Shown here piece by piece: positions 16,253-64,000 of a DNA stretch of 64,000 nucleotides. A program made the position numbers and the translations under genes. The notes under the pieces were generated by a model. That model was given only the letters and a program-made list of their open reading frames with translations. It had not been told where the DNA came from and made no database searches. This stretch comes from an uncultured Gammaproteobacteria bacterium. GTDB taxonomy: Bacteria; Patescibacteriota; Patescibacteriia; UBA9570; XYC2-FULL-38-9. The stretch is from NCBI GenBank assembly GCA_964492735.1, contig CAZBLE010000003.1, forward strand, positions 6,279-70,278, read 5' to 3'. Position 1 is the stretch's first letter. Every line of letters starts with the position of its first letter.

Positions 16253-18274
16253 TTACGGCTGAGCGAACAGCGGGTGCGGGCCGTCGGCGATGGCCCAGTT
16301 GTGTGTGGTCTGGCTACCGTCGGGCCAAACGACCTCAACTTGCGCCGAAGCCTGGTTGCTGCCCAGGTCGAGGCAGAAGTCGGAGTCGAGGCCGTTCCGG
16401 TAGCCGGTCGGCTGCTCCCGGAGGACCTCAACGCCGCCCACGGTGACAGTCACGCGCGACAACGAGCCGTTTCGCGGGACAGTCACGCCGTTGCCGGCCA
16501 AGCTTCCGCAAAAGCGGTTTCCGGTTGCGATGCTGTCGTTGCGGAGGTACTTGGGATTCCCCTCATACACTCCGCTGACAACGCAGTCAGCGTCGCCGTC
16601 GTTGTCGAAGTCCGCGCAGACCATCTGGCGATGGTTGCCGCGCGTGGCGTCGGCGCCCATCGTGTCGTTGATGCCGATGCGAGACGGCGGGTAGGGGTAC
16701 GTCATCCCCATCTGGCCGCCCGTGCCGCGAACCGCCATATGCGCCGTGATCGGCTGGCCGTTGGTCGGGCACTCCGCAGCGCCAGGGCAGGTGCCGTTGT
16801 ACCCCCGGCCGTCGTGCCCCCACGGGGTGAGGAACGACGTCGCGACTTGCCCGTCCGGCAAGTAGCGCGTCGTCTCGCCGCCCATTTCCCAAGGGATGGG
16901 GCGCACGGGCGGACCCGGCTCGAAAACGCACGCTGCGCCGAGGCCCTGGCCGCCAGCCAGGGACCAGTCGGCCAACTGCGGGACGTTCCCGGTGTTGTCG
17001 AACCAGAGGTCCGACCCTGGATCGCGGCCGTAAGCCGAGAAACAGAGGTCGTTGCTGCTGGTCGACACCAACAGGTCGGGCCAGTTGTCGCCGTCGAGAC
17101 TGGTAAAGAGGCCGCCCATCGGGCGGCTCCAAGCCAATTGACTCCAACCAGAAGTCCCGTCCTGCTCCACGAAGCGTGGCCAGCCGTCGGTGGTCGTGCC
17201 GTCCCGGACGAAAACGCCGGTCGGCGATCCGCCCATGGGCGATCCCATCGCCCAGATGGTCAGCGACCCGTCGGGGCCGGGCAAGGCCAGCCAGGTGTAG
17301 AGATCGCTTCTCGCGCCAGGGAGGCGCTCGAAGTTTTGACTCGCAACCCAGCCTCCGCCCGGCTGCTGGAAGAACGTCCACGGCAGACTGTCTCGCGACA
17401 TCAAGAGAATGTCGAGCAGCCCATTTCCGTCGATGTCCCAGACGCCCGGGATCGGGCGGATCGTGAACCCGGCACCGCGCCAGGCGGCGTCAAAGGAAGG
17501 GTCAGGCGCCCAGCGACCGTCCGGCTGACGCTCAAAAACGAGCCCAAGCGGCGAAGCCGCCAGGATCTCGACCTGCCCGTCGCCGTCGAGGTCGACGAGG
17601 TCAAGGTAGTTGACCTCGGTCGCCGTTGAGATCCGCGGGTCGAACCCACGCTCGAGGAGACCTGCAGCGACGAAGTCGCCAATCCCGTCCCGAGGGACGG
17701 TCCAGGTTCCCGTCGCCGGGTCGAGCGTGCGGATCGCTCCGCGATAGCTCGACCCGACCCACCGCATGTCAAAGAGACACACCAAGGAGTCGTCCGCCGG
17801 ACCAGCCCAACCGCCCTTGGTGCAGGCGGCGGGATGCCGCTGCACCGGGCGCGGCCCAATGTCGTCCTCCAACCACCCCGCCATGGGCTGGCAGTTGGTG
17901 GGGACGTCGGGCGGACAGATGTCGCCCGCGAGCTCGGTGTAGGTCAGCTGCGGGTAGTCCCCGAGCTGCGTTCCGAGCGCGGTGGGAACGACGGGTGGGA
18001 CGACGTCGGTGTCAGCCGTGTCGACGGTGTCGGTGTCATCCGTGACCTCCCACGCGGGAGTCGTGTCGGTGCCTGCCGACTCATCCGAGTCGTCCGTGCC
18101 ACCTCCCGCCTCAGGCGGGATGGTGTCGTCGGAGGACGGGGGAATCGTGTCCGTCGTGTCGACGGTGTCGATGTCGGGGTGGGGCTGGCGGAAGCCAGCT
18201 CCCACGTCCTCGATGACCTGACAACCGGAGGTGAAAGCGAAGAAGCCAAAAACCAGAGCGCGAAGGGTCGTCAT
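16253..18274 (-). CDS. FG-GAP/VCBS-repeat lipoprotein (ASPIC/UnbV, CRTAC1-like), GC-rich foreign gene
   Basis: ~67 % GC against a ~45 % backbone. Lipobox-type signal MTTLRALVFGFFAFTSGC. Repeated DxDGDG loops (VDLDGDGQVE, WDIDGNGLLD, CADFDNDGDADC). GGAG Shine-Dalgarno sits 6 nt before the ATG at 18274. The longest ORF extends to 18346. Confidence 0.75.
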   Translation of the reverse strand: MTTLRALVFGFFAFTSGCQVIEDVGAGFRQPHPDIDTVDTTDTIPPSSDDTIPPEAGGGTDDSDESAGTDTTPAWEVTDDTDTVDTADTDVVPPVVPTALGTQLGDYPQLTYTELAGDICPPDVPTNCQPMAGWLEDDIGPRPVQRHPAACTKGGWAGPADDSLVCLFDMRWVGSSYRGAIRTLDPATGTWTVPRDGIGDFVAAGLLERGFDPRISTATEVNYLDLVDLDGDGQVEILAASPLGLVFERQPDGRWAPDPSFDAAWRGAGFTIRPIPGVWDIDGNGLLDILLMSRDSLPWTFFQQPGGGWVASQNFERLPGARSDLYTWLALPGPDGSLTIWAMGSPMGGSPTGVFVRDGTTTDGWPRFVEQDGTSGWSQLAWSRPMGGLFTSLDGDNWPDLLVSTSSNDLCFSAYGRDPGSDLWFDNTGNVPQLADWSLAGGQGLGAACVFEPGPPVRPIPWEMGGETTRYLPDGQVATSFLTPWGHDGRGYNGTCPGAAECPTNGQPITAHMAVRGTGGQMGMTYPYPPSRIGINDTMGADATRGNHRQMVCADFDNDGDADCVVSGVYEGNPKYLRNDSIATGNRFCGSLAGNGVTVPRNGSLSRVTVTVGGVEVLREQPTGYRNGLDSDFCLDLGSNQASAQVEVVWPDGSQTTHNWAIADGPHPLFAQP

Positions 18275-18714
18275 GGGAACTCCAGAGCTCGCACGCAGCG
18301 AGTTCATGGGTGGAACGAGACTGCAAACGGCACTATGCCATCGCAATCATTCTCTCTATCATCCAAATACCCCACGACAAAAATGCAATTACTGCATCGC
18401 TGTCCTGAGGCCTCTGGATGATAGAGACGAAACTAGATGAAAAATTCAATTTTCAAAGAATGCAAAAAATTCCAAGTTGGAACTTGCACTACTTACTATA
18501 TCCCATATTTTGACAAAAAAGTCAAGCATTTTTTGGCTAACCTCTGTTGATATTTTCTTAATACGAAAAAGGCCAGAAATACGCAGATGCACGGGGAGCT
18601 GGTCGCTCGCAGTTGTACAAAAGCCTATTCCTGGCGTGCCGAGAGACTCTCGGTAACTTACCTCAATCAGCCTGACTGACATTTCCGCCGTTATCAGCCG
18701 GGCCGATTTTTTTC

Positions 18715-18987
18715 TCACATGAGCAAGGGGTCGGTCAAAGCCTGCCCACCCCACTCGCAACGCCAAGGGCGTGCAAACGGGTCGAAGAAGATCCTCTGCC
18801 GATACTCCCAGGCCCGGAGCTCGAGCTCCTGGATGCTCTCCGGGTCTCGAAGTCCCTTGCAGGCCTCCGTGAACTCCTCCGCGAGCTCAGCAAGCTCCGC
18901 CTCCTGAGCTTCACTGGGCGCGACAGCCCAGTAGAGAGTCGAGTACGCTGCAATGAAGATCCCACTCAACAAAAGAAACTCCCGCAC
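18715..18987 (-). CDS. small GC-rich secreted protein (90 aa), hypothetical
   Basis: GTG start preceded by GGAGG. N-terminal signal-like MREFLLLSGIFIAAYSTLYWAVAPSEA. GC-rich like the adjacent FG-GAP gene. Confidence 0.35.
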   Translation of the reverse strand: MREFLLLSGIFIAAYSTLYWAVAPSEAQEAELAELAEEFTEACKGLRDPESIQELELRAWEYRQRIFFDPFARPWRCEWGGQALTDPLLM

Positions 18988-19121
18988 GAGACCTCCAGCT
19001 CATGAGCGTAAGTGCTCATTTGTTGACTGATTATACAATTTTTCGCCCAAAAGTCAAGAAAATAAGCTTGTTATTCGGTCATTTTTCGGCTTTTAAAAAA
19101 CTGTGCTATACTCCACAAACT

Positions 19122-27526: not shown

Positions 27527-29131
27527 TTATTGCGCTTCCATGGCACGACCCGTTTCTTTGGCTGCTTCAAAGATAGACGTCGTAAGAGCTTTCCAATGTT
27601 CCTGGCTGAAGAAATTTGGATCTGGATGCTCAATCTGCTCAGCGATTAACACTTCCATCGTATCCGTCACTTCATCATTCACTGACTGGATTGTTTTGAC
27701 CACTTGATTTTTGGTCGTATCCACAACAACGGTTGTACGAACAGCATCTGGCTGATCTGTATATCGATAGACAACGGTCATAAGCGCTCCATCCGTCACT
27801 TGAGATTCCACAACTCCATAATTACGAAATTGATCAATATACCGCTCTGGACTGAGTGCCCATTTCTGCATATTGGTCTCCCAATTTTTATCAGCACCTT
27901 GAAGCGCATCAGCTTGATAGTCCAGAATTAACTGATCATTAAACGCTTGCACCTCTTCAGCGGTGAGTGCTGTGACTGTATTTGTTTCAAGATCATAATG
28001 ATAGACATCGGATCGCATAACAGTTTCAAACGTTGCTTCAGAAAAATTTCCTTGTCCAAGCTCGACAATTTTTTCATAAGACAACTGAACTAAAAATTGG
28101 GTTTCACGAGCAATATTTTCTGGTTCATTCGGCAGCGTTTCCATATTGCGGGTGCTTCCAAAATTTCCAATAACCGCAAACTGATTTTCATACCCTTCTG
28201 TCGTTTTCTTATTTGCAACAACATCTTCTGGATGCAATTGCGGATTAAAGAGAAATGGCTTCCAATGCGTTTTGTCGCGCGTTGTTGGCTTGTCTGTTAG
28301 TGTATTATAGGTATTTGTCCATACTCGAAGACGTGGCATGATTGTTCCAACTGGCTCGACCTCTCCGTGTGATAGAGCTTCTGGCATTTCTGGCAACGGT
28401 GCCGATGTTGTGACTGACAATGTTTTCACTGGGCCATCATATCCTTCATGTTCAATAACCATTGGCTTCATCACTGTAATTTTTTCACCTATCAGAGCTG
28501 GCGTACGTGCTGCAACATTCACATCAACGCGATTACATGCAACTGCCATATCTGTCACGTGCGCATCATCAAAGAAACAATTTTCAGAAGTTTGCGCATT
28601 CATGACATGATTCAGGGTTGATACAATTCCTGCATATGGCTCTCCATTGAGCGGCTGCGTACGAATACTCATCATACCCACGAGTGGTTGACTCCACGTT
28701 TCAACAACTTGATTTCCATCCCATTGCTTTGAGATTGTTGTATAGTTAATTTTCATATGACGAATCGCTTGAGCGGATGTTCCAAATGTATTGGTAATAG
28801 AATCCGCAACAACTGACTCGGCTGATTGGTTTGTGATATTTGCAATTGGTGAATTGGTTCGTGCAAATTTTTGACCTGCCTGCTGAATAGCGAGTGGTCC
28901 ACCTGCGAGAACAAATACTAACGCTCCAACAGCAAGTGCGCTGGCTGGAATCAGTAATCGCAACCACCGACGGCGATATGTTGATGTGTGCATAGAATAT
29001 ATCTGATAAGTTCGATACGCTTGAATTGTTGCATAACGCAATTCTTCAGTGTGGTCTGTGCGCTCTGGAATCGGAACAGCCCGCAATAGCTGCTCGAGTG
29101 ATTCTTCAAATTGTGATGGTGAGTGTTTCAT
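27527..29131 (-). CDS. membrane-anchored anti-sigma-factor-like protein with large extracytoplasmic domain
   Basis: 534 aa. Single TM helix (LLIPASALAVGALVFVLAGG) after a ~60-aa cytoplasmic N-terminus. Lies immediately downstream of an ECF sigma gene. Paralogous to 29800..31395 (shared C-terminal NPxxFFSxxxWK). Confidence 0.6.
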   Translation of the reverse strand: MKHSPSQFEESLEQLLRAVPIPERTDHTEELRYATIQAYRTYQIYSMHTSTYRRRWLRLLIPASALAVGALVFVLAGGPLAIQQAGQKFARTNSPIANITNQSAESVVADSITNTFGTSAQAIRHMKINYTTISKQWDGNQVVETWSQPLVGMMSIRTQPLNGEPYAGIVSTLNHVMNAQTSENCFFDDAHVTDMAVACNRVDVNVAARTPALIGEKITVMKPMVIEHEGYDGPVKTLSVTTSAPLPEMPEALSHGEVEPVGTIMPRLRVWTNTYNTLTDKPTTRDKTHWKPFLFNPQLHPEDVVANKKTTEGYENQFAVIGNFGSTRNMETLPNEPENIARETQFLVQLSYEKIVELGQGNFSEATFETVMRSDVYHYDLETNTVTALTAEEVQAFNDQLILDYQADALQGADKNWETNMQKWALSPERYIDQFRNYGVVESQVTDGALMTVVYRYTDQPDAVRTTVVVDTTKNQVVKTIQSVNDEVTDTMEVLIAEQIEHPDPNFFSQEHWKALTTSIFEAAKETGRAMEAQ

Positions 29132-29137
29132 AAAAAG

Positions 29138-29647
29138 TTACACAATTGATTGAACAGACTGAACACTGTTTTTTAAACGCTTGATCGCCTGACTCAACAT
29201 GCTACTGACTGTTTTTTGATCAATGTCGAGCATCTCCGCAATTTCCACATTTGAAAAATCGGATTGGTATCGCAGCAAAAGAACCTCGCGCTGACGGTCA
29301 GTCAGGCTCCCAAGATGCTGTTGCAGCATTTCCAGATTCATCGCCGTGTCGAGCGCAATGTCTGGCATCTCTGCTGTATCAGCGACATCATAATCCGCGA
29401 TATCGTCTGTTTGCTTTTGTGTGCGGTAGTGGTCGATGACTGTATTGCGCGCAATGGTGTACATCCATTTACGAAATGCCAGCTCGTCATTTTTTGGCGC
29501 AAGAGCGTCATAATGGCGAACGACTTTTTCAAAAATCGCAGATACCAAATCTTCGGTTGTTTCCATGTGACTCACACGCAAATACACAAAACGATAAATC
29601 GGTTTATGATACGTGTCGAATAGCGCGGCGATTTGTTCAAGCGTCAT
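29138..29647 (-). CDS. RNA polymerase ECF-type sigma-70 factor
   Basis: 169 aa. Sigma-70 region 2 (PIYRFVYLRV, IARNTVIDHYR) and region 4 HTH (DRQREVLLLRY...IAEMLDIDQKTVSS). Confidence 0.85.
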   Translation of the reverse strand: MTLEQIAALFDTYHKPIYRFVYLRVSHMETTEDLVSAIFEKVVRHYDALAPKNDELAFRKWMYTIARNTVIDHYRTQKQTDDIADYDVADTAEMPDIALDTAMNLEMLQQHLGSLTDRQREVLLLRYQSDFSNVEIAEMLDIDQKTVSSMLSQAIKRLKNSVQSVQSIV

Positions 29648-29799
29648 GCTGATAGATTAATTATGTGAAGCATACTCTGCAGAGTACAACGTGTCACGAT
29701 AAACATGACTACACAGACTACGACGACCGAGCAGCGAAAGTACGTATGACTATCAAAAAAGCCCCTATTTCAGGGCTTTTTTATGTGGTATTCGTATCT

Positions 29800-31395
29800 T
29801 TAGTCCTTGATAATCTCCTTGGCACGCTCTTTCCATGCCTTCTCAGAAAAAAACGTGTCTGGATTATCTGTTGTTGTTTTGAGCGCGTCGAATGTTGTGG
29901 TGTAGATTGTTGCTTGCTGTGTATTTGGATAATCATACCGCTCAATAATTGCCGTCAATAACTGAGTCTGACTATCAACACGCACTTCTGTTGTTCCAAT
30001 CATGTGCATCGATGGATTATCCGCATTCCACTCTTGGGTCACGCTATACACATATTCAGTTCCTTCAATGCGTGGCGTGACAGTATGGAGTTGCGCAAAC
30101 ACAGCAGATCCGCCAGCAATGTAATTGAAGAACGTCTCTCCTGAATTACTGGTAAAAATCTCTTTTCGTACTGCTAAGCGTCGTGCATTAAACTGCTCGA
30201 TATCTTCAGGTGTTTGAGTAAGCGGATGCACACTCTCAAATCGCCATTCATCAGAAAATTTCATTTGAAACACTTGAGATGCAGCAGAAAATAATTTTGA
30301 ATCATACTGCTTTTCTTGAACTGTTGTTGCTCCAAGAAGCGCTGTGTTGAGCTGCACAATTTGTAGTTGTACTTCAGAAAAAATACGTACCGGATTTTGT
30401 GTCGCCTCTGTTAACGTATCATGCGCATAACGCCCATCCAACATGAATGCAAATGATTGTTTATACCGACCATTCACTGGAACGTTCCACTCAGGATCTG
30501 CAATTCCTCCAGAGACATTTCCAAGTGGAGATAATGCAATTGGAGCAAAGGCAATATTATTTTGCGCATCAATAAACTCAGAAAGATATTTCACATAAGA
30601 CGGTTCAGCGATCAGAATGCCGAGATTGCTTGGGTCAATCGGCACTGCAGTTGTAAATGACATCTGCTCACTATCAAGGTCTGTATTATATGAAAAGTCT
30701 TGAATATCAAGTGGTGGTTGTTTTTCTGCGAAACCAACATAATCTGCAATACCACCTGAGTCACAGACATGCTCATTCGTAGCTAAATCTTCATTTGCAC
30801 TTTTTATTGATTGTGCATTGTGCATATCAACGCCGATGACACAATTTTCAATTGATTGCGCGTCAGCGTTCAAGTTTGTCATACGATACCTCTTTTCTTC
30901 TTGGACACTTGGTCCTGTTTTGCGCAGGTATCCAGTGAATGCGTGTTGTGCAATATAATATTCCTGATCCGTCCGCGCCGTAACTTCTTTTACTTCTGAC
31001 TGATTACCATTTGTATTCATGTCTTCACGAACCGTATGAAACACAACATGACGAATACCATCGGTAGTAGAAAAAGTGTGTTGAATTGATTCTGCAATAA
31101 GTTCTTGCGGAACAATGGATTCAATAATTGAATTCGTATTGTTCGTACGTGCTGCAAACTCACTGCGGAGCGCTGGGCTACCAACTGTAATCACACCAAT
31201 CGCAACAGCAGCCAAAGCAAATCCTGGCACTGCGAACCGAGAAACAAACCGACGTAGTCTCTGGCGCTGCGTAGTCGCCTCTTCTGTTGCAGACTCGAAC
31301 ATTCGAGCTTGGATAGCCGCTCTGTGAGCGTCGTGCTCTGGTACTGCTACACGCGCAAACATATCTTTTAATTGTTCTTCTGGTAAACGTTTCAT
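29800..31395 (-). CDS. membrane-anchored anti-sigma-factor-like protein, paralog of 27527..29131
   Basis: 531 aa. TM helix (FAVPGFALAAVAIGVITVG). Overlaps the upstream sigma gene by 4 nt. C-terminal conserved motif DNPDTFFSEKAWK. Confidence 0.6.
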   Translation of the reverse strand: MKRLPEEQLKDMFARVAVPEHDAHRAAIQARMFESATEEATTQRQRLRRFVSRFAVPGFALAAVAIGVITVGSPALRSEFAARTNNTNSIIESIVPQELIAESIQHTFSTTDGIRHVVFHTVREDMNTNGNQSEVKEVTARTDQEYYIAQHAFTGYLRKTGPSVQEEKRYRMTNLNADAQSIENCVIGVDMHNAQSIKSANEDLATNEHVCDSGGIADYVGFAEKQPPLDIQDFSYNTDLDSEQMSFTTAVPIDPSNLGILIAEPSYVKYLSEFIDAQNNIAFAPIALSPLGNVSGGIADPEWNVPVNGRYKQSFAFMLDGRYAHDTLTEATQNPVRIFSEVQLQIVQLNTALLGATTVQEKQYDSKLFSAASQVFQMKFSDEWRFESVHPLTQTPEDIEQFNARRLAVRKEIFTSNSGETFFNYIAGGSAVFAQLHTVTPRIEGTEYVYSVTQEWNADNPSMHMIGTTEVRVDSQTQLLTAIIERYDYPNTQQATIYTTTFDALKTTTDNPDTFFSEKAWKERAKEIIKD

Positions 31396-31901
31396 ATGGT
31401 TGTTGAAAAATGATTGCGAAGTTTATGAATAGCTTTTGAGATAGTTGATGCAACGGCCTTTTGGTCAATTCCCATTACAGAGGCAATTTCAGTATTTGTC
31501 AGATCTGCTTCAAGGCGTAATAACACACATTCTTTTTGACGATCTGGAAGCAGCGCGATGGCTTCGTGGACCTGTTCGAGTGAAAGCGTGTGGTCAACAA
31601 TTGCGTCTGGAAGTGGCTCTGTATCGATGATGGCAAGATCTTCAATTGGTGTATCGCTGTGCGGTCGATTGGCTTGCTTGCGATAATGATCAATGAGCGT
31701 GTTCCGCGCGATCGCGAAAATCCACGATTTTTCTGTCGCTCCAGGTTGCTGTTTGAAGCGCGGAAAATGTTTGATGACTTTTTCAAAAATATGTGAAACC
31801 AAGTCTTCAGCTGTCTGTTTGTGGCCCACGCGAAAATAGACGAAGCGGTAGACCGGCTCGTAATATGTTTGGAACAAGATCATTAATTCATGTTGAGACA
31901 T
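31392..31901 (-). CDS. RNA polymerase ECF-type sigma-70 factor (second copy)
   Basis: 169 aa, ~50 % identical to 29138..29647 (PVYRFVYFRV, IARNTLIDHYRKQ, DRQKECVLLRL...IASVMGIDQKAVAS). Confidence 0.85.
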   Translation of the reverse strand: MSQHELMILFQTYYEPVYRFVYFRVGHKQTAEDLVSHIFEKVIKHFPRFKQQPGATEKSWIFAIARNTLIDHYRKQANRPHSDTPIEDLAIIDTEPLPDAIVDHTLSLEQVHEAIALLPDRQKECVLLRLEADLTNTEIASVMGIDQKAVASTISKAIHKLRNHFSTTI

Positions 31902-32142
31902 AGGATATGTGTGCAGCGCACATGACTGATAACGACAAGTTGCGCAGAATACGTCAAAGGGAGTTTATGAGAGGCGTTATCCGTTACAAAATACATTTTT
32001 TTTGAGTGATTGTAATAACCAAAATGTGCCGCGTGATGCATTCCTTGGGAGAATATGCAAAACGCGACACCGAAGGCGGCCTCAAACAGCTGAACGATGT
32101 GATGTCGTTGTGACATCGCTCAGGTGTGAGGCAAAGGCCTTC

Positions 32143-33129
32143 TTAGAGCGGGGTCAATGCCGCGGGCACGGACCAGGGCCCGTTGCGGGTCGCCTGGGTG
32201 CTACCCCACAGGGTGGGGAGACCGGAGGCCGGGTCCACGTGGAACCCAATGGCCCACGGGGTGGTCGTGTAGTCGTACTCGAGGACGTCACCGGAACCCC
32301 CGGGCTCCCAGCAGTATGGCGTGTAGTGCCGGGTATGCTGGAAGTCTCCCAGATCGTAGACATCGACCCAGCAGATCTGGGCGCCTGCCGCCCCGGACTG
32401 GAGTGAAATGTCAGGAACTCCCCACGGGCGGCGGATCTCAAGACCCGTGCTGCGGTCGTAGGTGTAGCTGTGGGGGTACGGCGCCGTCACCATGACCGTG
32501 ACGGAAAAGTCAGTCATCACAACACGCGCCGCCGGGCTTGATGCGCCGGTGACGGGGTTGAACGTGACCGGACCAGGGCCCGTTCCGGGCTCATGGCAGT
32601 CGATCGTGATGTTTCCCGGCGCACCAGGCTGCTTAGCTGCGATGCAGAGCTCGTCGCCCATCGCGTCTGCCGCGTAGGTGACGCCAGGGGCGTTGGCTTC
32701 GATCGCCCAGCCGGAGCCCGGGCCGGTTCCAGGGATCCAGGTCCGCACGACGCCGCGCCCGGTCTCGAGCGCGGTAATGAAGCCGCCCCCGAGCGCAAAG
32801 GACTCAAGCGTGACGCCAACCGGCGCCGAGATCGTAGACCAGGTTCCATTGCTGGCGCGGCAGCGGATGGCGAGGCCATCCGTCTGCAGGCCGCAGAGGA
32901 AGTTACCCTCCACAGAGACCTCGTTCAGGGTAGGCGCCCCTGCGGGCACCGTCCAAGCCGGGGTCGCCGAGGTGGACAACAGGGGCTGCACCGCAGGCCC
33001 AGTCTGCAGCACCCAGGTGCCGGACAGGGGCTCGAAGATCGCCGGAGACTCCGCCCTCGCGGGTGAACCTCCGAACAGCAGAGCCGCGGCGAAAAACGCC
33101 GCAGCCACCAAAACCGAGATGTGCTTCAT
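32143..33129 (-). CDS. GC-rich secreted Gly/Pro/Thr-rich protein, hypothetical (foreign gene)
   Basis: 328 aa and ~66 % GC. Signal peptide MKHISVLVAAAFFAAALLFGGSPARA. No recognised domain. Confidence 0.6.
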   Translation of the reverse strand: MKHISVLVAAAFFAAALLFGGSPARAESPAIFEPLSGTWVLQTGPAVQPLLSTSATPAWTVPAGAPTLNEVSVEGNFLCGLQTDGLAIRCRASNGTWSTISAPVGVTLESFALGGGFITALETGRGVVRTWIPGTGPGSGWAIEANAPGVTYAADAMGDELCIAAKQPGAPGNITIDCHEPGTGPGPVTFNPVTGASSPAARVVMTDFSVTVMVTAPYPHSYTYDRSTGLEIRRPWGVPDISLQSGAAGAQICWVDVYDLGDFQHTRHYTPYCWEPGGSGDVLEYDYTTTPWAIGFHVDPASGLPTLWGSTQATRNGPWSVPAALTPL

Positions 33130-33365
33130 CTTGACCTCAATGTCTTTTATTTAGGCTGGCAGACTCACCAGTAAGACTTTTTTCAAAACGTATCAATGAA
33201 CAAAAAAGCACCACAATGGTGCATAAAACGGACAAAAATGTAGCTCAAAATAGGTAAAATGTCAAGCAATGGCGCATTATCCTTATAATAGAAAAAATGG
33301 ACGAATCCTGCATAGGCATTGTCAGTCACCGTTAGTCGCAGATTAGGCTGTACTTGCCCTTTACG

Positions 33366-33415
33366 ACCCGAAGCTGCGGGGTAGCTTCTCCACGTCTTTG
33401 CGATAAAGCACGTGG
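33366..33415. other. pair of adjacent GC-rich stem-loops in the 452-nt divergent intergenic region upstream of uvrA (possible structured RNA or regulatory element)
   Basis: GAAGCT-gcggggt-AGCTTC at 33370..33388 and CCACGTCTTT-gcgat-AAAGcACGTGG at 33390..33415. Confidence 0.25.
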
Positions 33416-33581
33416 CGTCCCGACACTGACACGCTATCATCAGAATTCGCCCGAGGCATACTGTCTACTGTATTTTATAAAAAAATGCAAGCCCCTGCGC
33501 TCCTGCCCATGGTTGACCAACCCCAAAAAAGCGAGTATTCTACAACACTACTTTCACTTATTACACATCTCATTTACACCC

Positions 33582-50989: not shown

Positions 50990-52270
50990 TTATTCTTCCC
51001 AGTCAATAAGCAATAATCGCGGCTCTACTTCGCCATCGCGAACCAGTGGTTTGTCCGCATTAAAATCCCATTCAATCATAGTGTTTCGACTTGCAAAATC
51101 TTTATGGGGAACACCGCGCTCCTCTGCCATCTTTTTGAGAGACTCTCGTCGAGCTGTTAACGGAAAACCAAAAAAATGCACATCAACGACTTGAGCCCAT
51201 TCTTTTTTATATGACACTATTTTAGCATCAGCGTCTTCTTGAATCAGCACCGCATCTTTCTCCCATTGACTCTCCCAATGAGGAGATGCAAAACGGTATC
51301 GATTAAAAAAATCTTCAATCGAATCGATGCCTAGTGTGCGAGCAACTTGCAATATACACTTATCTACAAATTCTTTTCCGCCAAAGATATTAACGTGACG
51401 TAAATAACTACCCGGCCCGTCAATAACATCACTGATATAAATGTAGAGCTTCGAACAAAAAAAATGATAATCAAGAACCTCTTGGTATTTATTTGCAACA
51501 TCTTGACAGCGTTTTTGTAAATCATTATTTTGCGTTTCTGGAAAATAAAACATAATACCTGACATTACAGCTTGAAATGAAAGAGGTGCGCGTAACAAAT
51601 TGTCATAATCTTCAGTGCGTTGGAATCTACGGGCGATCGCATCTAACACTGTCACTCCACGCACTTTTTCAAAAAGTGCGTACTGGTTTTCGCCATGCAG
51701 TACTTCTCCGTACACTCGTGGCGTTGGAATCCCAGCGTCAAATGCTGCCCGTTGGCGATTCACAGAACTCAATGCCTTCCGATCAATCCGTCGTGAAACA
51801 ACAGAAAGAACACTCTCATCTGGCCCTGGAAGATTAAAAGATTTTACTTGTGTCACATCATATGCGATGTCCATCAGTCGGCGATTGGTTTCTGCTCGCG
51901 GGATCCTGCCTGCTCCACGATCTACCTCAACTTGGCCTTCAATAAAAGATGTTGGATCATCAAAAAACTCTTTTGGAAAATATGAACTGACTGCTTCGTC
52001 CAATAAAATAACAGGCGGTACTTCTGGATGCGTTTCAAAAAATAACGGCTCTGCGTCTAATAACGCTTCCATGGCATCAGCGTTCCCGGCAGTCAAACGA
52101 AATAATAATGCATACGGACTCTCTGTATACAGCACCTTCCCTTCACGGATATGCCGATCATGACGCTCCGCAAGTTCTAAAATCAACCGTGAAATACGCC
52201 GACCTGTGTCTTCCAGTGTTTTTTCAGGGCGTCGTGGTTGCAATTCGGCCATAGTTGAAAAATCTTTCAA
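50990..52270 (-). CDS. hypothetical protein, possibly protein-kinase-like (APH/choline-kinase-like) fold
   Basis: 426 aa. N-lobe-like PRVYGEVLHGENQYALFEKVRGVTVLD and C-terminal LLIDWEE resemble APH-family motifs, but the catalytic loop is not canonical. Tentative call. Confidence 0.4.
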   Translation of the reverse strand: MKDFSTMAELQPRRPEKTLEDTGRRISRLILELAERHDRHIREGKVLYTESPYALLFRLTAGNADAMEALLDAEPLFFETHPEVPPVILLDEAVSSYFPKEFFDDPTSFIEGQVEVDRGAGRIPRAETNRRLMDIAYDVTQVKSFNLPGPDESVLSVVSRRIDRKALSSVNRQRAAFDAGIPTPRVYGEVLHGENQYALFEKVRGVTVLDAIARRFQRTEDYDNLLRAPLSFQAVMSGIMFYFPETQNNDLQKRCQDVANKYQEVLDYHFFCSKLYIYISDVIDGPGSYLRHVNIFGGKEFVDKCILQVARTLGIDSIEDFFNRYRFASPHWESQWEKDAVLIQEDADAKIVSYKKEWAQVVDVHFFGFPLTARRESLKKMAEERGVPHKDFASRNTMIEWDFNADKPLVRDGEVEPRLLLIDWEE

Positions 52271-55358: not shown

Positions 55359-55636
55359 CTACTGGCCGTCAACAGGCGGCTGAGGGTCCGAAGCCTTCAT
55401 CAGTGGAGGTGCACGATGGAGCCGACGCCGACCCCAGACCCCGAGGCCGAAGCCTACCAGGTAGGAGAGGGCGATCAGCAACGGGTAACCGGACTCCTCC
55501 AACCGACGGGCGAAGAGCACAAAGGCTCCCACCGCGAAGACCAGGATCAGCGTCGTGCGCCACTCCTTGTCGCGACGAAACCCGTCGACGATGAAACCGG
55601 CGATCAGCCCATACATCAACAACCCGAAAACCAACA
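55359..55636 (-). CDS. GC-rich small membrane protein (~92 aa, 3 TM), hypothetical (foreign gene)
   Basis: SD AAGGAG 11 nt upstream of the ATG at 55636, with an in-frame GTG at 55649. Perfect -35 TTGACA upstream. ~65 % GC with G/C-biased third positions. Translation MLVFGLLMYGLIAGFIVDGF... Confidence 0.5.
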
Positions 55637-55733
55637 TTGTTTTCACCACTCCTTGAGTGCCAATCTATTTGGCTACAGCCAGCCTACTGGCTCAAATCAA
55701 GGTTGTCAACAAAGATTCAATACTCTCAAATGA

Positions 55734-55783: not shown

Positions 55784-58700
55784 TTACAGCGTTTCGATTT
55801 CTTCTGTTGTATCTTCATTCGTCTTCGCACCAGCTTCTGGCATTTTAAAACCAGTTCCAACTGGAATTAATTTACCGATGATGACGTTTTCTTTTAGACC
55901 CATCAAGTTATCTACTTTTCCAGACACAGCCGCATCGATCAAGATGCGGGCAGTTTCTTGAAAAGACGCTGCAGATAAGAATGAATCAACAGTTAATGAT
56001 GCTTTTGTGATACCGAGCAATACCGGCTCAACAACCGCTGGTTTACCGCCAGCTTCAGCATTTGCGCGAGCAAGTGCTGAACGTGAAACAACATCGCCGT
56101 TCACTAAGTCAGTTCCCTTTGGATCTAAGACCTTGAAACGTGCAAGCATTTGACGAATGATTACTTCAATATGCTTGTCATTTAACTTCTGACCTTGTGA
56201 GCTATAAATATATTGAATTTCTTTAATGATATATTTATGCACTGCATCGATTCCTTGAAGCGCTTGTAATTCATACAAGTCCAATGAACCTTCTGTTAGC
56301 TGTTGACCTGCAACAACCAGCTCACCTTCCTTCACCCACACGCCATAGCCTGGGACAACTGGGCATTCGCGAATTTGTTCTTCACGACCATAGAGTGAAA
56401 GTTTGGTTTTTTCGATTTTAATTGTTCCAGCAATACGTGCTTTCACAGTTCCATCGACGTTATCAAACAAGGCAGCGCCTTTTTTCACAGTTGCACCATC
56501 GGAAGCGTGCAGCTTGTCAGCTTTTTTCATGGTGTATTTTTCTTCAACATCAGCATCATATCCAATGCGAACAATATACTGACCATTTTCTTTCACAATT
56601 TCTTTCACAACACCATCAACGTCAGCGATCACTGCTGCTCGTTTTAATTGGCGCGCTTCAAACAATTCTTCGACACGTGGAAGACCTTGGGTAATATCAG
56701 CGCCAGCTACACCACCAGTATGGAAGGTACGCATAGTAAGCTGAGTTCCTGGCTCACCAATTGATTGAGCGGCCATAATTCCAGCGGCAGTTCCAAGAGC
56801 TGCTAATTTATTGTTTGAGAGATCGAAACCATAACAGAACTGACACACACCACGATCTTGTTCACACGTCAGTACTGATCGAATGACTGCAGATTCCATT
56901 TCATGACCTTTCACTTTTTCAAGTTCGTCAGTTGAAACTAATGTACCTTTTTTAATCAAGACTTTGCCGTTTACATCAACCAAGTCTTTCGCAAGCACAC
57001 GGCCTAAGATACGATTTGCTAGTGATTCACCCATGTCTGTTGATTCTTTTTCAGAAATTTCAAAGCCACGAGTTGTTCCGCAATCTTCTGCAGCGACAAC
57101 AACATCTTGGGCAACATCAACCAAACGACGAGTCAGGTATCCGGCATTCGCAGTACGAAGCGCAGTATCAGTCAAACCTTTACGCGCACCATGTGTTGAA
57201 ATGAAATATTCCAAGACATCGAACCCTTCTTTAAATGACGCTTTGACTGGCAATTCGATTGTTTCACCAGACGGGTTAATCACGAGACCTTTCATACCCA
57301 TCATCTGAGTTGTTTGACCCCATGAACCACGAGCACCAGAGTTAATCATTGCGAATACTGAACCATCAAGTGGAAGCACTTTTTGTACTTCATCAGTCAC
57401 TTTGTCTTTTGCGGCTGTCCAAATTTCAACAACTTTTACACGACGCTCGTCATCAGTTAAGAGACCCATCATAAAGTTGTGATGGATATCTTCTACTTCT
57501 TTTTCTGCGTCAGCGATAATACCAGCTTTTGAATCTGGAACCATCACGTCATCCATACCCCAAGAAATACCAGAATGTGTGACATATTCAATCGCAATAT
57601 CTTTCACATCATCAAGTAATTGAACAGTACGATCTGGACCTTCAACAGCGAGACATTCTGCAATGATATCTTTCAATACTTTTTTATCAACCACTTCATT
57701 CAAGAACTGTTGTGCTTCTGGCAAGATTGTATTGAACAAGATGCGACCAGCTGTTGTTTCAACAACTCCGTCTGCCATCTTCACAAGAACAGCATCTTGC
57801 AAATGAACGCGACCAGTCTGCTGCGCAAAACGCGCTTCTTCTGCACTTCCAAACGCGAGCATGCGTTTATTGTCGTCTGCTTTTTCACGCTTCACTGTCA
57901 TGTAATATGATCCGAGGACGATATCTTGTGACGGAGTGACGATCGGTTCACCAGTCGCTGGTTTAAGCAAGTTATGTGATGCGAGCATCAATTCTTTTGA
58001 CTCACGACGCGCTTCTGTTGAAAGAGGCACATGCACCGCCATCTGGTCACCATCAAAGTCAGCATTAAACGCTGGACACACAAGTGGATGCACTTGGATC
58101 GCTTTACCTTCAATCAAAATTGGCTGGAAGGCTTGGATACCAAGACGATGCAAGGTTGGAGCACGGTTCAAGAGTACAGTTGCATCGAGTGTCACTTCTT
58201 CAAGGATGTCCCATACTTCAGGACGATCTGATTCAATGAAGCGGTTTGCTGAGCGAACATTGTACACATATTCACGTTCAATCAATTTCGCAATCACGAA
58301 TGATTTGAACAATTCAAGTGCCATACGTTTTGGCAAACCACATTGATACAATTTCAAATGTGGACCAACCACGATTACTGAACGACCAGAGTAGTCAACA
58401 CGTTTACCAAGAAGATTTTGACGGAAACGACCTTGTTTTCCTTTCAGAATATCAGCAAGTGATTTCAACTGACGTTTTTGTCCAGTAGATGCCGTAACAG
58501 TTTTTCCATGACGAGCACTGTTATCGATCAGCGCATCAACCGCTTCTTGTAACATACGTTTTTCATTGCGTTGAATCACTTCAGGTGCATTCAATTCTTT
58601 CAAACGCTTCAAACGATTGTTACGGTTAATCACGCGACGATACAAGTCATTCAAATCAGAAGCTGCGAATCGACCACCGTCAAGTTGCACCATTGGACGC

Positions 58701-59683
58701 AAATCTGGTGGGATCACTGGAATAACATCAAGAATCATCCATTCAGGGCGCAGTTCGTTCTTGATCAAATTCTTCACAAGTTTCAAACGACGCAACACAC
58801 GACTTGATTGATTCTTTGTTGCAGTGAGAAGTTCTGCTTCGAGCGCTTTTTGTGTTTCCGCAAGATCAATGCGTACAAGTAACTGCTTCACAGCTTCAGC
58901 ACCGATACCAGCGTCAAACACGTGACCGTATTTCAATGACAAGTCATAGTATTCACTTTCTGAAACAATCTGATGAACACTTAAGTTCTTCAATTCTTTC
59001 ATTGCCATTGATGCCGCATCTTCTAAATCTTTCAGCTGTTCATCACGCAACACAGAAACATTCACAAGTTCTTGTTCGAACTTATTATCGTCTGCTGCTT
59101 TCAATTTTCCGCCTGCTTCCTTCGTTGCAGCTTCACGACGTTTTTTTACTTCAGCAACTTTGTCTTGTGCTTCGGCTTTAATCTGTTTTTTCTTTTGTTC
59201 TAATTCTTGTTCAATTTGCTCCATTGTCTGAGCGCGTAACTCATCGTTCACATCAGTCACGATAAAGTTTGCAAAATAGACAACTTTTTCAAGAGCTTGT
59301 GCAGATAAGTTTAAGAGCAAACCAACTTTACTTGGCACGCCACGGAGGAACCAGATATGTGACACTGGCGCAGCAAGCGCAATGTGACCCATGCGTTCAC
59401 GACGTACGTTTGCGCGTGTGACTTCAACGTGACATTTATCACAAACAATTCCTTTGTAACGAATGCGTTTGTATTTACCGCAATAACATTCCCAGTCTTT
59501 TGACGGACCAAAAATCTTTTCACAGAACAAACCATCTTTTTCTGGCTTCTGTGTTCGGTAGTTGATCGTTTCTGGACGAATGACTTCGCCATGAGACCAT
59601 GAACGAATTTCTTGTGGAGATGCCAGTTTCAGACGGATCGCTGAGAAATCGGCAACTTGTGTGGTGTTTTCGTAGAATGACAT
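55784..59683 (-). CDS. rpoC: DNA-directed RNA polymerase subunit beta'
   Basis: 1299 aa. Zinc-binding CYCGKYKRIRYKGIVCDKCHVEV and the NADFDGDQM catalytic motif. Confidence 0.97.
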   Translation of the reverse strand: MSFYENTTQVADFSAIRLKLASPQEIRSWSHGEVIRPETINYRTQKPEKDGLFCEKIFGPSKDWECYCGKYKRIRYKGIVCDKCHVEVTRANVRRERMGHIALAAPVSHIWFLRGVPSKVGLLLNLSAQALEKVVYFANFIVTDVNDELRAQTMEQIEQELEQKKKQIKAEAQDKVAEVKKRREAATKEAGGKLKAADDNKFEQELVNVSVLRDEQLKDLEDAASMAMKELKNLSVHQIVSESEYYDLSLKYGHVFDAGIGAEAVKQLLVRIDLAETQKALEAELLTATKNQSSRVLRRLKLVKNLIKNELRPEWMILDVIPVIPPDLRPMVQLDGGRFAASDLNDLYRRVINRNNRLKRLKELNAPEVIQRNEKRMLQEAVDALIDNSARHGKTVTASTGQKRQLKSLADILKGKQGRFRQNLLGKRVDYSGRSVIVVGPHLKLYQCGLPKRMALELFKSFVIAKLIEREYVYNVRSANRFIESDRPEVWDILEEVTLDATVLLNRAPTLHRLGIQAFQPILIEGKAIQVHPLVCPAFNADFDGDQMAVHVPLSTEARRESKELMLASHNLLKPATGEPIVTPSQDIVLGSYYMTVKREKADDNKRMLAFGSAEEARFAQQTGRVHLQDAVLVKMADGVVETTAGRILFNTILPEAQQFLNEVVDKKVLKDIIAECLAVEGPDRTVQLLDDVKDIAIEYVTHSGISWGMDDVMVPDSKAGIIADAEKEVEDIHHNFMMGLLTDDERRVKVVEIWTAAKDKVTDEVQKVLPLDGSVFAMINSGARGSWGQTTQMMGMKGLVINPSGETIELPVKASFKEGFDVLEYFISTHGARKGLTDTALRTANAGYLTRRLVDVAQDVVVAAEDCGTTRGFEISEKESTDMGESLANRILGRVLAKDLVDVNGKVLIKKGTLVSTDELEKVKGHEMESAVIRSVLTCEQDRGVCQFCYGFDLSNNKLAALGTAAGIMAAQSIGEPGTQLTMRTFHTGGVAGADITQGLPRVEELFEARQLKRAAVIADVDGVVKEIVKENGQYIVRIGYDADVEEKYTMKKADKLHASDGATVKKGAALFDNVDGTVKARIAGTIKIEKTKLSLYGREEQIRECPVVPGYGVWVKEGELVVAGQQLTEGSLDLYELQALQGIDAVHKYIIKEIQYIYSSQGQKLNDKHIEVIIRQMLARFKVLDPKGTDLVNGDVVSRSALARANAEAGGKPAVVEPVLLGITKASLTVDSFLSAASFQETARILIDAAVSGKVDNLMGLKENVIIGKLIPVGTGFKMPEAGAKTNEDTTEEIETL

Positions 59684-63659: not shown

Positions 63660-64000
63660 CTACTTAGCCGCACGCTCCTCCTGCTGGAGCGCCAGCCGCT
63701 TGTACGCCAAAAGCTCCGTGGCCTCAGCAACCTTGGCCGCGTACCCGAAAGTGTTCGGGTAGTAGCCGCGGACCGAGATCCGACCGTCGGGGGTTACGAC
63801 ACAGAGGTTCATGTCGACGATGAACCCAACGGGCTCACCAACGAACTGACGCGACGTGTACGGTGACGTCCGCTTCTTCGGCAGAGCGCCCTTCTCAACC
63901 TTGTCCATGACGCGGAGGTTAGTCGGGTGCTGCTGCGCGTAGCGGCTGAAGACGCGCTGCAGGTCGTGCAGATCGTGGACACCAGAGTTCCTCCCCGACT
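63660..64000 (-). CDS. GC-rich hypothetical protein, 5'-truncated by the window edge
   Basis: The open frame runs to the window end without a stop (…SGRNSGVHDLHDLQRVFSRYAQQHPTNLRVMDKVEKGALPKK…EERAAK*). ~65 % GC. Confidence 0.4.
   Translation of the reverse strand, partial: SGRNSGVHDLHDLQRVFSRYAQQHPTNLRVMDKVEKGALPKKRTSPYTSRQFVGEPVGFIVDMNLCVVTPDGRISVRGYYPNTFGYAAKVAEATELLAYKRLALQQEERAAK

What the first reader, a model, noticed from the sequence alone, without database searches (positions are those of the whole stretch)
32100..33135. Second GC-rich islet: secreted Gly/Pro/Thr-rich protein directly upstream of the duplicated ECF sigma modules
This single 328-aa signal-peptide protein at ~66 % GC has no recognisable domain. 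It lies in the same orientation as, and 240 nt upstream of, two tandem ECF sigma/anti-sigma pairs. It may be a foreign exported protein recruited next to an extracytoplasmic-stress signalling locus. The boundaries are sharp: GC falls to ~35-40 % within ~50 nt on both sides.
Basis: seen in the sequence. Interest (0 to 1): 0.6.

Follow-up and report, generated by a model that had tools for sequence, protein, structure and literature searches.

The report
High-GC orphan secreted-protein gene islet
A real, single-gene, 67 % GC insert in a 45 % GC Kerfeldbacteria-like (CPR) chromosome encodes a secreted, all-beta orphan protein with no relatives outside its sister genome; it is one of a class of gene-sized high-GC inserts in this lineage, most simply explained as imported genes, although their GC-richness does not seem to decay as imported DNA should.

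Summary
ORF 33129-32143 (minus strand, 328 aa) is 67.3 % GC with GC3 0.81, against host genes at 42-46 % GC. It has a canonical Sec signal peptide and lies 241 nt upstream of two ECF sigma/anti-sigma modules. It is not an assembly artefact: an independent assembly (L005, about 86 % nt identity) carries the orthologous N-terminus at the same site with the same GC. The next relative (L006) has no gene there, L007 has a different secreted-protein gene there, and distant Kerfeldbacteria have uvrC and uvrA adjacent.

The protein has no homologue in 1.84 billion cluster representatives, GTDB genomes, plasmids, phages, Pfam, NCBIfam or PDB. Weak structure models suggest a beta-propeller-like protein with three cysteine pairs.

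The co-transcription idea is not favoured. The islet has its own conserved sigma-70-type promoter and leader and a strongly structured 3' tail, and sigma A has its own ECF-type promoter (GACGTA-N14-TCGTT) downstream of the islet.

Best reading: a horizontally acquired, fast-evolving surface or host-interaction gene in a hypervariable slot.

One point is unresolved. In the sister islet family, synonymous sites are saturated yet GC4 stays near 0.8. The high GC therefore looks maintained, not merely un-ameliorated.

The parts
32143..33129 (-). Islet gene: 328-aa precursor of a secreted orphan protein. The stop codon is 32143-32145.
   Evidence: ORF listed. GC 0.673 and GC3 0.81. The orthologous N-terminus in L005 differs by an in-frame 3-nt indel.
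33052..33129 (-). Signal peptide coding region (residues 1-26, cleavage after ARA).
   Evidence: Read from the sequence. 'SPARA|ESP' is identical in L005 while the hydrophobic core diverges.
33135..33138 (-). Ribosome-binding site GAGG, 5 nt before the ATG.
   Evidence: Read from the sequence.
33237..33265 (-). Sigma-70-type promoter TTGACA-17-TACATT.
   Evidence: 10/12 consensus match. Conserved in L005, where the -10 is TATATT; identity 0.90.
33130..33236 (-). Conserved 5' leader. It includes the hairpin GCACCAttgTGGTGC plus a U6 run (33222-33202).
   Evidence: Terminator-like site. Identity to L005 is 0.92, against 0.72 at uvrA four-fold sites and 0.60 in the adjacent spacer.
32026..32142 (-). 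Mid-GC 3' tail folding into two long hairpins, followed by a U-rich stretch. It is a probable terminator or insulator.
   Evidence: MFE -58.4 kcal/mol, z = -6.5, 0 of 200 shuffles fold as well. No copy elsewhere in the window.
31931..31955 (-). ECF-type promoter motif GACGTA-N14-TCGTT in front of sigma A.
   Evidence: The pattern has 3 hits in the window against 0.10 expected. The same motif lies upstream of sigma genes in L006 and L007.
31392..31901 (-). ECF sigma factor A.
   Evidence: Pfam Sigma70_r2 1.1e-16 and r4_2 7.5e-12.
29800..31395 (-). Putative anti-sigma A: N-terminal cytoplasmic segment, one TM segment and a large external domain. Its start overlaps the sigma A stop.
   Evidence: Architecture read. 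Only a weak NCBIfam anti-sigma hit, E 0.019.
29722..29746 (-). ECF-type promoter motif in front of sigma B.
27527..29647 (-). Second ECF sigma (29138-29647) and its putative anti-sigma (27527-29131).
33480..33581 (+). Conserved uvrA promoter/leader. It marks the right edge of the variable slot.
   Evidence: Homology with the empty-site genome L006 resumes at 33480 at 95 % identity. Promoter-like site at 33513-33541.

Best explanation
The islet is a genuine single-gene accessory unit in the chromosome of a Kerfeldbacteria-like CPR bacterium. It sits in a hypervariable intergenic slot between uvrA and a sub-clade-specific pair of ECF sigma/anti-sigma modules. The coding sequence most likely entered by horizontal transfer from an unsampled high-GC source, in or before the common ancestor of the window genome and L005. 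It has since been inherited vertically while evolving fast. It is transcribed from its own sigma-70-type promoter through a conserved leader of about 100 nt, translated from a GAGG site, and exported by Sec with cleavage after ARA26. The mature protein of about 300 aa is probably an extracellular all-beta, propeller-like binding protein with three cysteine pairs spaced as if stapling hairpins. That would make it a surface or host-interaction factor of an episymbiont. Shown here: the gene is real, where it sits, its composition, its presence/absence pattern, the signals around it, and its orphan status. Inferred: horizontal origin, the fold, disulfides, and a binding function.
Against: No donor or outside homologue was found: 0 hits in 1.84e9 representatives, GTDB genomes, plasmids, phages and viral contigs. 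There is therefore no phylogenetic proof of transfer. There are no integrase, tRNA, flanking repeats or shared flank motifs. The 5' GC boundary coincides with the start codon, which simple illegitimate insertion does not predict. In the sister islet family (FG-GAP), synonymous sites are saturated yet GC4 stays at 0.79-0.83, which argues against plain un-ameliorated foreign DNA. The structure models are low confidence (pLDDT 38-39) and internal sequence repeats are not significant. Whether the window+L005 clade gained the gene or L006 lost it cannot be polarised.
Confidence: 0.55

Rival explanations
1. The gene is not a recent import. It belongs to an endogenous class of fast-evolving accessory genes of Kerfeldbacteria, mostly for extracellular proteins. 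Their high GC would be a maintained equilibrium, through GC-biased gene conversion at recombination-prone loci, selection on the DNA or mRNA, or continual replenishment from an outside pool. On this view the orphan status reflects rapid divergence.
For: Islet-1 orthologues in L009 and L010 are high-GC with ORF-exact boundaries: GC 0.63-0.635 and GC3 0.73-0.76, against host GC3 0.26-0.46. Their only homologues among 5.8e9 proteins are in this lineage and are syntenic. In strictly aligned blocks their four-fold sites are as scrambled as host sites (excess identity 0.10 vs 0.23; S/W correlation 0.07 vs 0.23), yet GC4 is 0.83 and 0.79. The retained GC excess is at least 0.44 as a product over the two lineages, against about 0.23 expected under host-like neutral decay. 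Protein identity is 27-58 % where housekeeping proteins are 85-96 % identical. All the high-GC genes share similar codon usage (RSCU r 0.37-0.90 among themselves, about -0.2 to -0.35 with host genes).
Against: The test concerns islet 1, not islet 2, which offers only 33 four-fold sites. It uses a two-state model, few sites (87) and a near-saturated signal. The cargo includes ordinary enzymes (M17 peptidase, possibly GAPDH) that look like plain imports. Islet 2 is absent from L006. To my knowledge, no bacterial mechanism is known that gives ORF-exact GC elevation of this size.
Confidence: 0.25
2. The islet gene is a functional member of the sigma A operon or regulon. It would be co-transcribed with, or controlled by, the ECF module, for example as a secreted partner or signal for the anti-sigma factor.
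For: It has the same orientation and lies 241 nt upstream. The scan found no sigma-70-type promoter between the islet and sigma A. In L007 both ECF modules are preceded by elevated-GC secreted cysteine-rich genes that lie behind the ECF-type motif. The 3' hairpins have only an imperfect U-tract, so read-through is possible.
Against: The ECF-type motif in the window lies downstream of the islet (31931-31955) and none lies upstream of it. The islet has its own conserved sigma-70-like promoter. A -58 kcal/mol double hairpin separates the two units. L006 keeps the sigma module without any such gene. The slot genes of the different genomes are not homologous.
Confidence: 0.12
3. The islet is cargo of a mobile element such as a prophage remnant, integron cassette, transposon or plasmid integration.
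For: It has a single-gene, cassette-like size with a structured, imperfectly palindromic 3' tail. The site is variable across genomes.
Against: There is no tRNA and there are no flanking direct or inverted repeats. The flanks of the different islets share no sequence. There are no PHROG hits and no tblastn hits in phage, plasmid or viral collections. None of the annotated neighbouring genes is a recombinase.
Confidence: 0.05
4. The islet is an artefact: a chimeric assembly, contaminating DNA, or a chance ORF in GC-rich non-coding DNA.
For: High-GC DNA produces long chance ORFs, and several overlap here on both strands.
Against: The same junction appears in an independent assembly. The codon-position GC pattern is frame-specific. 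The signal-peptidase site is conserved and the indel is in-frame. No Rfam family reaches threshold.
Confidence: 0.02

Closest known systems
Compositionally atypical, horizontally acquired single genes ('genomic islets', ORFan accessory genes) and the amelioration model of Lawrence and Ochman (from my own knowledge)
   Same: Atypical GC at all codon positions. Patchy presence among close relatives. Insertion between conserved housekeeping genes. No detectable homologues, as for many ORFans.
   Different: The direction is unusual: about +22 GC points in a small CPR genome. The GC step is ORF-exact at the 5' end. There are no mobility marks. In the sister family the GC excess has not decayed despite saturated synonymous sites.
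HGT islands and individually transferred genes reported in groundwater Patescibacteria (PMC12455944)
   Same: CPR genomes carry islands and single transferred genes. The paper reports up to 13 % of genome length, with donors often not recovered.
   Different: That survey reports transfers mostly between Patescibacteria. It notes that old events escape detection after GC and tetranucleotide adjustment. It does not describe gene-sized high-GC inserts or their persistence.
Extracellular beta-propellers: the CRINKLY4/ACR4 ectodomain (PDB 7a0k, 7a0j), which I recall from memory as RCC1-like and disulfide-stapled, and the PknD NHL sensor domain (1rwi)
   Same: Best structural matches of the weak model. 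The protein is extracellular, has runs of about four strands, and has cysteine pairs 11-20 residues apart (79/90, 162/178, 253/273).
   Different: No sequence match to RCC1, NHL, WD40 or any Pfam repeat, even at E = 10. Only alternate putative blades have cysteine pairs. The model confidence is too low to count blades.
ECF sigma/anti-sigma modules with co-transcribed accessory envelope proteins (general knowledge of group 4 sigma factors)
   Same: Two autoregulated-looking modules with a -10 'CGT' core promoter. In L007 secreted-protein genes lie behind that promoter.
   Different: In the window the islet lies upstream of the ECF promoter and has its own promoter. The anti-sigma assignment rests on architecture only.
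Hypervariable surface-structure loci with persistently atypical GC, such as O-antigen and capsule loci (from my own knowledge), and the hypervariable PTD-repeat surface protein of a Gracilibacterium (PMC6851277)
   Same: Cell-surface products, extreme divergence between close relatives, and a fixed chromosomal slot. The islet-1 lipoproteins have D/T/P-rich linkers reminiscent of the PTD repeat.
   Different: The O-antigen and capsule loci are multi-gene and low-GC. The Gracilibacteria case involves repeat hypervariation, with no GC anomaly reported.

Membership tests
Sec-dependent secreted protein (SPase I signal peptide) | Positively charged n-region, hydrophobic h-region of 10-20 residues, and small residues at -3/-1 (AxA) | tested here: met
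   MKH / ISVLVAAAFFAAALLF / GGSPARA|E. The cleavage region is identical in the L005 orthologue. This was read from the sequence; no SignalP-type predictor was available.
Horizontally transferred gene | Composition and codon usage deviating from the host genome | tested here: met
   GC 0.673 against 0.42-0.46, and GC3 0.81 against 0.33-0.48. RSCU correlation with host genes is -0.19.
Horizontally transferred gene | Patchy distribution among close relatives, with an empty site | tested here: met
   Present in the window and L005, absent from L006, a different gene in L007, and no slot at all in L011 and L012.
Horizontally transferred gene | Closest homologues in a different lineage (phylogenetic incongruence, identifiable donor) | tested here: not met
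   No homologue anywhere outside the sister genome.
Horizontally transferred gene | Amelioration towards host composition with time | tested here: inconclusive
   Islet 2 offers only 33 four-fold sites, with GC4 0.73 and 0.70 in the two lineages. The sister islet family shows no decay despite saturation.
Mobile-element cargo (prophage, integron cassette, IS/transposon) | Integrase or transposase, att/attC or terminal repeats, tRNA target, phage or plasmid homologues | tested here: not met
   No tRNA, no flanking repeats, no motif shared between islet flanks, and no PHROG, phage, plasmid or viral matches. A dedicated integron-integrase search was not run.
Beta-propeller fold | Four to ten repeated four-stranded antiparallel blades closing a ring | tested here: inconclusive
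   Both models are all-beta with runs of four strands, and the structural neighbours are propellers. However, pLDDT is 38-39, TM-scores are 0.2-0.3, and internal sequence repeats are not significant (z at most 2).
RCC1 / crinkly, WD40, NHL, tectonin or FG-GAP repeat families | Match to the family's sequence profile | tested here: not met
   No Pfam hit for the precursor, the mature protein or two fragments, even at E = 10.
ECF (group 4) sigma factor (the two neighbours) | Sigma-70 regions 2 and 4 only, about 170-200 aa | tested here: met
   Both 169-aa proteins exceed the Pfam cut-offs for Sigma70_r2 and r4/r4_2.
Anti-sigma factor (the two 531/534-aa neighbours) | N-terminal anti-sigma domain, single TM segment, gene coupled to the sigma gene | tested here: inconclusive
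   For the A pair the start overlaps the sigma stop, and a TM segment lies near residues 60-85. The only profile evidence is NCBIfam 'anti-sigma factor' at E 0.019, 15 bits against a cut-off of 100.
ECF sigma regulon member (the islet gene) | ECF-type promoter upstream of the gene | tested here: not met
   The motif KACGTA-N14-YCGTY occurs upstream of sigma A and sigma B but not upstream of the islet. It does precede the slot genes of L007.

The most novel reading that the evidence does not exclude
Kerfeldbacteria-like CPR bacteria may keep a class of gene-sized, ORF-bounded high-GC genes, mostly for extracellular proteins, whose GC-richness is an actively maintained state and not a fading trace of import. 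The cause would be GC-biased conversion or selection acting gene by gene, or continual replenishment from a high-GC partner organism. Islet 2 would be a young member of this class, encoding a new family of disulfide-stapled propeller-like surface proteins used in host contact.
Probability: 0.2. Interest if true: 0.75.

Novelty: new variant of a known kind. Interest (0 to 1): 0.5.

Why it matters
CPR/Patescibacteria are thought to live attached to other microbes, and the proteins that mediate contact are largely unknown. This locus gives a concrete candidate. The gene is secreted, lineage-restricted and fast-evolving. It has clean regulatory signals and sits in a chromosomal slot that different genomes fill with different secreted proteins, next to envelope-signalling sigma factors.

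More broadly, the set of gene-sized high-GC inserts has two possible uses. If the inserts are imports, their composition could point to the unknown high-GC partner or donor of these bacteria. If their GC is maintained, they would be an unusually clean bacterial case of gene-specific base-composition equilibrium. That is directly testable with population data.

Tried and rejected
- Sequence homology for the 328-aa protein found nothing. I tried the word-indexed search, exhaustive phmmer over 1.84e9 representatives, tblastn-confirmed scans of GTDB genomes and viral contigs, plasmids and phages, PDB, and Pfam, NCBIfam and PHROGs, including fragments at E = 10.
- Exact look-ups of window proteins failed. 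The source record itself appears not to be indexed, so 'no hit' means no hit other than self.
- Scanning GTDB genomes with the sigma factor found nothing, and the metagenome scan found only 26-29 % identical sigmas. UvrA was the query that finally gave close relatives.
- The second AlphaFold run, without the signal peptide, did not improve the model.
- Internal repeat detection by local alignment was not significant.
- A shared mobile-element or recombination motif in the islet flanks was not found.
- Rfam gave nothing at gathering thresholds. The permissive scan gave only sub-threshold chance-level hits (glycine riboswitch, 20 bits against a cut-off of 32, on the opposite strand; an IRES), which I rejected.
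- The 85-aa ORF 33183-33440 in the leader was rejected as coding, because the L005 alignment has frame-breaking indels.
- The four-sequence alignment of the slot was uninformative and was replaced by pairwise mapping.
- Literature searches found no description of this pattern.

Full report
**1. The observation**

The minus-strand ORF 33129-32143 encodes 328 aa. Its GC is 0.673, and 200-nt windows give 0.645-0.71, against 0.38-0.50 in the flanks and 0.45 for the whole window.

The codon-position profile is GC1/2/3 = 0.62/0.59/0.81. This is the signature of a gene shaped in a high-GC setting, since host genes have GC3 of 0.33-0.48.

The GC step at the 5' end falls within about 30 nt of the ATG. 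At the 3' end there is first a tail of about 120 nt at 0.50-0.57 GC, so 'sharp on both sides' is only half right.

The window has further such stretches:
- 16253-18346, a 697-aa FG-GAP protein with GC 0.67 and GC3 0.82.
- A small bump at 55359-55649.
- A stretch from about 63660 to the window end.

**2. It is a real gene for a secreted protein**

The N-terminus, MKH / ISVLVAAAFFAAALLF / GGSPARA|ESP, has the parts of a Sec signal peptide. A GAGG lies 5 nt before the ATG.

The mature protein is rich in G, T, A and P and has one lysine. It has six cysteines in three pairs (79/90, 162/178, 253/273) and eleven tryptophans.

An independent assembly, L005 (Logan SRR8640622), ends inside the gene. It encodes the orthologous first 70 residues at the same place, with GC 0.68 and GC3 0.81. 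It differs by an in-frame 3-nt indel and has an identical 'SPARA|ESP'. This excludes an assembly chimera and a chance ORF.

**3. It is an orphan**

No homologue was found in any of these searches:
- the word-indexed search of 5.8e9 proteins;
- exhaustive phmmer over 1.84e9 cluster representatives;
- tblastn-confirmed scans of GTDB genomes and viral contigs;
- plasmid and phage records;
- PDB sequences;
- Pfam, NCBIfam and PHROGs, even with fragments at E = 10.

**4. Fold**

Without an alignment, AlphaFold gives poor models (pLDDT 39 and 38). Both are all-beta, with runs of about four strands.

Internal sequence repeats are not significant. A propeller-like, cysteine-stapled extracellular protein is therefore a reasonable guess and not a result.

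**5. Host and locus history**

UvrA next door has relatives named Candidatus Kerfeldbacteria or Patescibacteria at 68-77 % identity, and unnamed close relatives at 87-98 %. The window is core chromosome: iPGM, MurD, RNase J, OppA, UvrD, UvrC, UvrA, GroEL, RecA, FtsK, GuaA and the two genes I take to be rpoB/rpoC at 55.8-63.1 kb.

Four-fold-site identity in uvrA makes the window and L005 sisters (0.72). L006 comes next (0.60) and L007 is further out (0.42).

The slot differs between genomes:
- L006 (GCA_964608475.1) has the sigma gene and uvrA about 380 nt apart with nothing between them. Homology to the window stops at the sigma A start (31901) and resumes at 33480. So 1578 nt in the window stand where L006 has 277 unalignable nt.
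- L007 carries a non-homologous 194-aa secreted MopE-motif gene in that slot (GC 0.57). It has a related 232-aa gene between its two sigma modules.
- In more distant Kerfeldbacteria (L011, L012), uvrC and uvrA are directly adjacent. The whole block of two ECF modules plus slot (27.5-33.1 kb) is therefore a sub-clade addition.

Gain in the window+L005 ancestor is the simplest reading. Loss or replacement in L006 cannot be excluded.

**6. Signals**

Upstream of the islet lies a sigma-70-type promoter, TTGACA-17-TACATT (33265-33237). Next comes a hairpin plus U6 (33222-33202), and then the ribosome-binding site.

The promoter and leader are 0.90-0.92 identical to L005. Four-fold sites of uvrA are only 0.72 identical and the spacer further upstream only 0.60. 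The leader is therefore under constraint.

After the stop codon, 32142-32026 folds into two long hairpins (-58.4 kcal/mol, z = -6.5) followed by a U-rich stretch.

A dyad, GACGTA-N14-TCGTT, lies upstream of both sigma genes. It has 3 hits in the window against 0.10 expected, and two of them are exactly at 31931-31955 and 29722-29746. It also lies upstream of the L006 sigma and the L007 sigma191. In L007 it also lies upstream of both elevated-GC slot genes. With its 'CGT' -10 core it looks like the autoregulated ECF promoter.

In the window this motif is downstream of the islet. The islet is therefore most likely a separate transcription unit. A regulon link is plausible for the L007 slot genes but not for this one.

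**7. A class of such genes**

Gene-sized GC outliers recur in every relative, at different places:
- the FG-GAP lipoprotein family (window, L009, and two copies in L010);
- a TSP3-repeat gene in L005 between Wzy and groES, where the window has none;
- the MopE-motif genes in L007;
- an M17 leucyl aminopeptidase after uvrA in L011, which lies on the strand opposite to the database gene calls;
- a 195-aa gene in L011 and a short one in L012;
- a possible GAPDH C-terminus in window islet 3 (NCBIfam E 5e-4, far below the cut-off).

These are documented. The flanks share no sequence, repeats, tRNA or recombinase. Mixed cargo with no common vehicle fits piecemeal import.

**8. The awkward fact**

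The FG-GAP islet has only two homologues among 5.8e9 proteins. Both are in this lineage and in the same neighbourhood. They are 27-58 % identical in protein, where RNase J, OppA and UvrD are 85-98 % identical. All are high-GC with ORF-exact edges.

Between the window and L009, four-fold sites of host genes are nearly saturated: excess identity over random 0.23 and S/W correlation 0.23. Those of the FG-GAP pair are at least as scrambled (0.10 and 0.07). Yet their GC4 is 0.83 and 0.79, against 0.36 and 0.48 for host genes.

If the gene had experienced the host's substitution process since the split, the product of the two lineages' retained GC excess should be about 0.23. It is at least 0.44 even if the ancestor had GC4 = 1. 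The sample is small (87 sites) and the model crude. Still, it suggests the GC-richness of this class is maintained or replenished.

For islet 2 itself only 33 such sites exist (GC4 0.73 and 0.70, d4 0.56). No verdict is possible for it.

**9. Verdict**

The most likely account (about 0.55) has these parts:
- a horizontally acquired single gene from an unsampled high-GC source;
- fixed in a hypervariable slot beside uvrA in the window+L005 lineage;
- expressed from its own promoter and exported;
- acting as a fast-evolving extracellular binding protein of an episymbiotic CPR bacterium.

The main rival (about 0.25) is an endogenous, fast-evolving gene class with a maintained high-GC equilibrium. 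Operon or regulon membership with sigma A (about 0.12), mobile-element cargo (about 0.05) and artefact (about 0.02) are less likely.

**10. Relation to what is known**

HGT islands in Patescibacteria are documented (PMC12455944). A hypervariable surface protein possibly tied to host contact is known in a Gracilibacterium (PMC6851277). Four literature searches found no description of gene-sized high-GC inserts in CPR genomes or of their persistence.

I rate it a new variant of a known kind (atypical-composition accessory genes) and of moderate interest. The upside lies in the lineage-wide pattern more than in this one gene.

Noticed in passing
window 16253-18346 (-); L009 10001-11908; L010 661-2700 and 7657-9705: The first high-GC islet encodes an FG-GAP protein with a lipobox (likely start MTTLRALVFGFFAFTSG|C) and a D/T/P-rich linker. 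Its only homologues are syntenic copies in close relatives. They are also high-GC and only 27-58 % identical, although housekeeping proteins are 85-98 % identical. Synonymous sites are saturated, yet GC4 stays at about 0.8.
   Followed up: yes
window 29722-29746 (-), 31931-31955 (-); L006 1664-1688; L007 6793-6817, 9057-9081, 9839-9863: A candidate ECF-type promoter, KACGTA-N14-YCGTY, has 3 hits in the window against 0.10 expected. It lies upstream of every sigma module in three genomes. In L007 it also lies upstream of the secreted slot genes. A third window hit at 51397-51421 (+) lies inside a minus-strand ORF and is probably chance.
   Followed up: partly
window 33130-33265 (-): The leader of the islet gene is more conserved between the window and L005 (0.92) than synonymous sites of neighbouring genes (0.72). 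It starts with a terminator-like hairpin plus U6 only about 8 nt after the predicted transcription start. This may be an attenuator or a 5'-protective stem. There is no Rfam match.
   Followed up: partly
window about 63660-64000 (-): A third high-GC stretch (about 0.62) contains the C-terminal 112 codons of a gene that runs off the window. It has weak, sub-threshold similarity to the C-terminus of type I GAPDH (NCBIfam E 5e-4). It is followed by a strongly structured mid-GC 3' flank.
   Followed up: partly
window 55359-55649 (-): A small GC bump (300-nt windows at or above 0.58) downstream of the presumed rpoC gene (ORF 55784-59683) contains a 96-aa ORF that looks like a small membrane protein. 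It may be another mini-islet.
   Followed up: no
window 18347-19001: About 650 nt of mid-GC (about 0.55) DNA lies between the islet-1 start and uvrD, with no convincing ORF (only a 106-aa ORF at 18446-18766). Unlike islet 2, the 5' side of islet 1 is not ORF-exact.
   Followed up: no
L005 5828-6379 (-): The sister genome has a high-GC gene (0.65, GC3 0.79) made of bacterial TSP3 calcium-binding repeats (Pfam 2.7e-25). Its best, sub-threshold, similarity is to Myxococcus CglD/MtsD. It is inserted between the Wzy-like gene and the position of groES, where the window has no gene. The islets therefore differ even between sister genomes.
   Followed up: partly
L011 12911-14559 (+): In a distant Kerfeldbacterium, a high-GC M17 leucyl aminopeptidase sits right after uvrA. 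It is split into two ORFs and may be a pseudogene. The database gene calls there are on the wrong strand (GC1 well above GC3).
   Followed up: partly
window 27527-33129 vs L011 8272-12859 and L012 8241-12844: uvrC and uvrA are directly adjacent and divergent in distant Kerfeldbacteria. The two ECF sigma/anti-sigma modules of the window are therefore themselves a lineage-specific insertion between two repair genes.
   Followed up: yes
window about 29755-29782 (-): A canonical intrinsic terminator (AAAAAAGCCCTGAAATAGGGGCTTTTTT) follows the first anti-sigma gene. The two ECF modules therefore look like separate transcription units.
   Followed up: no
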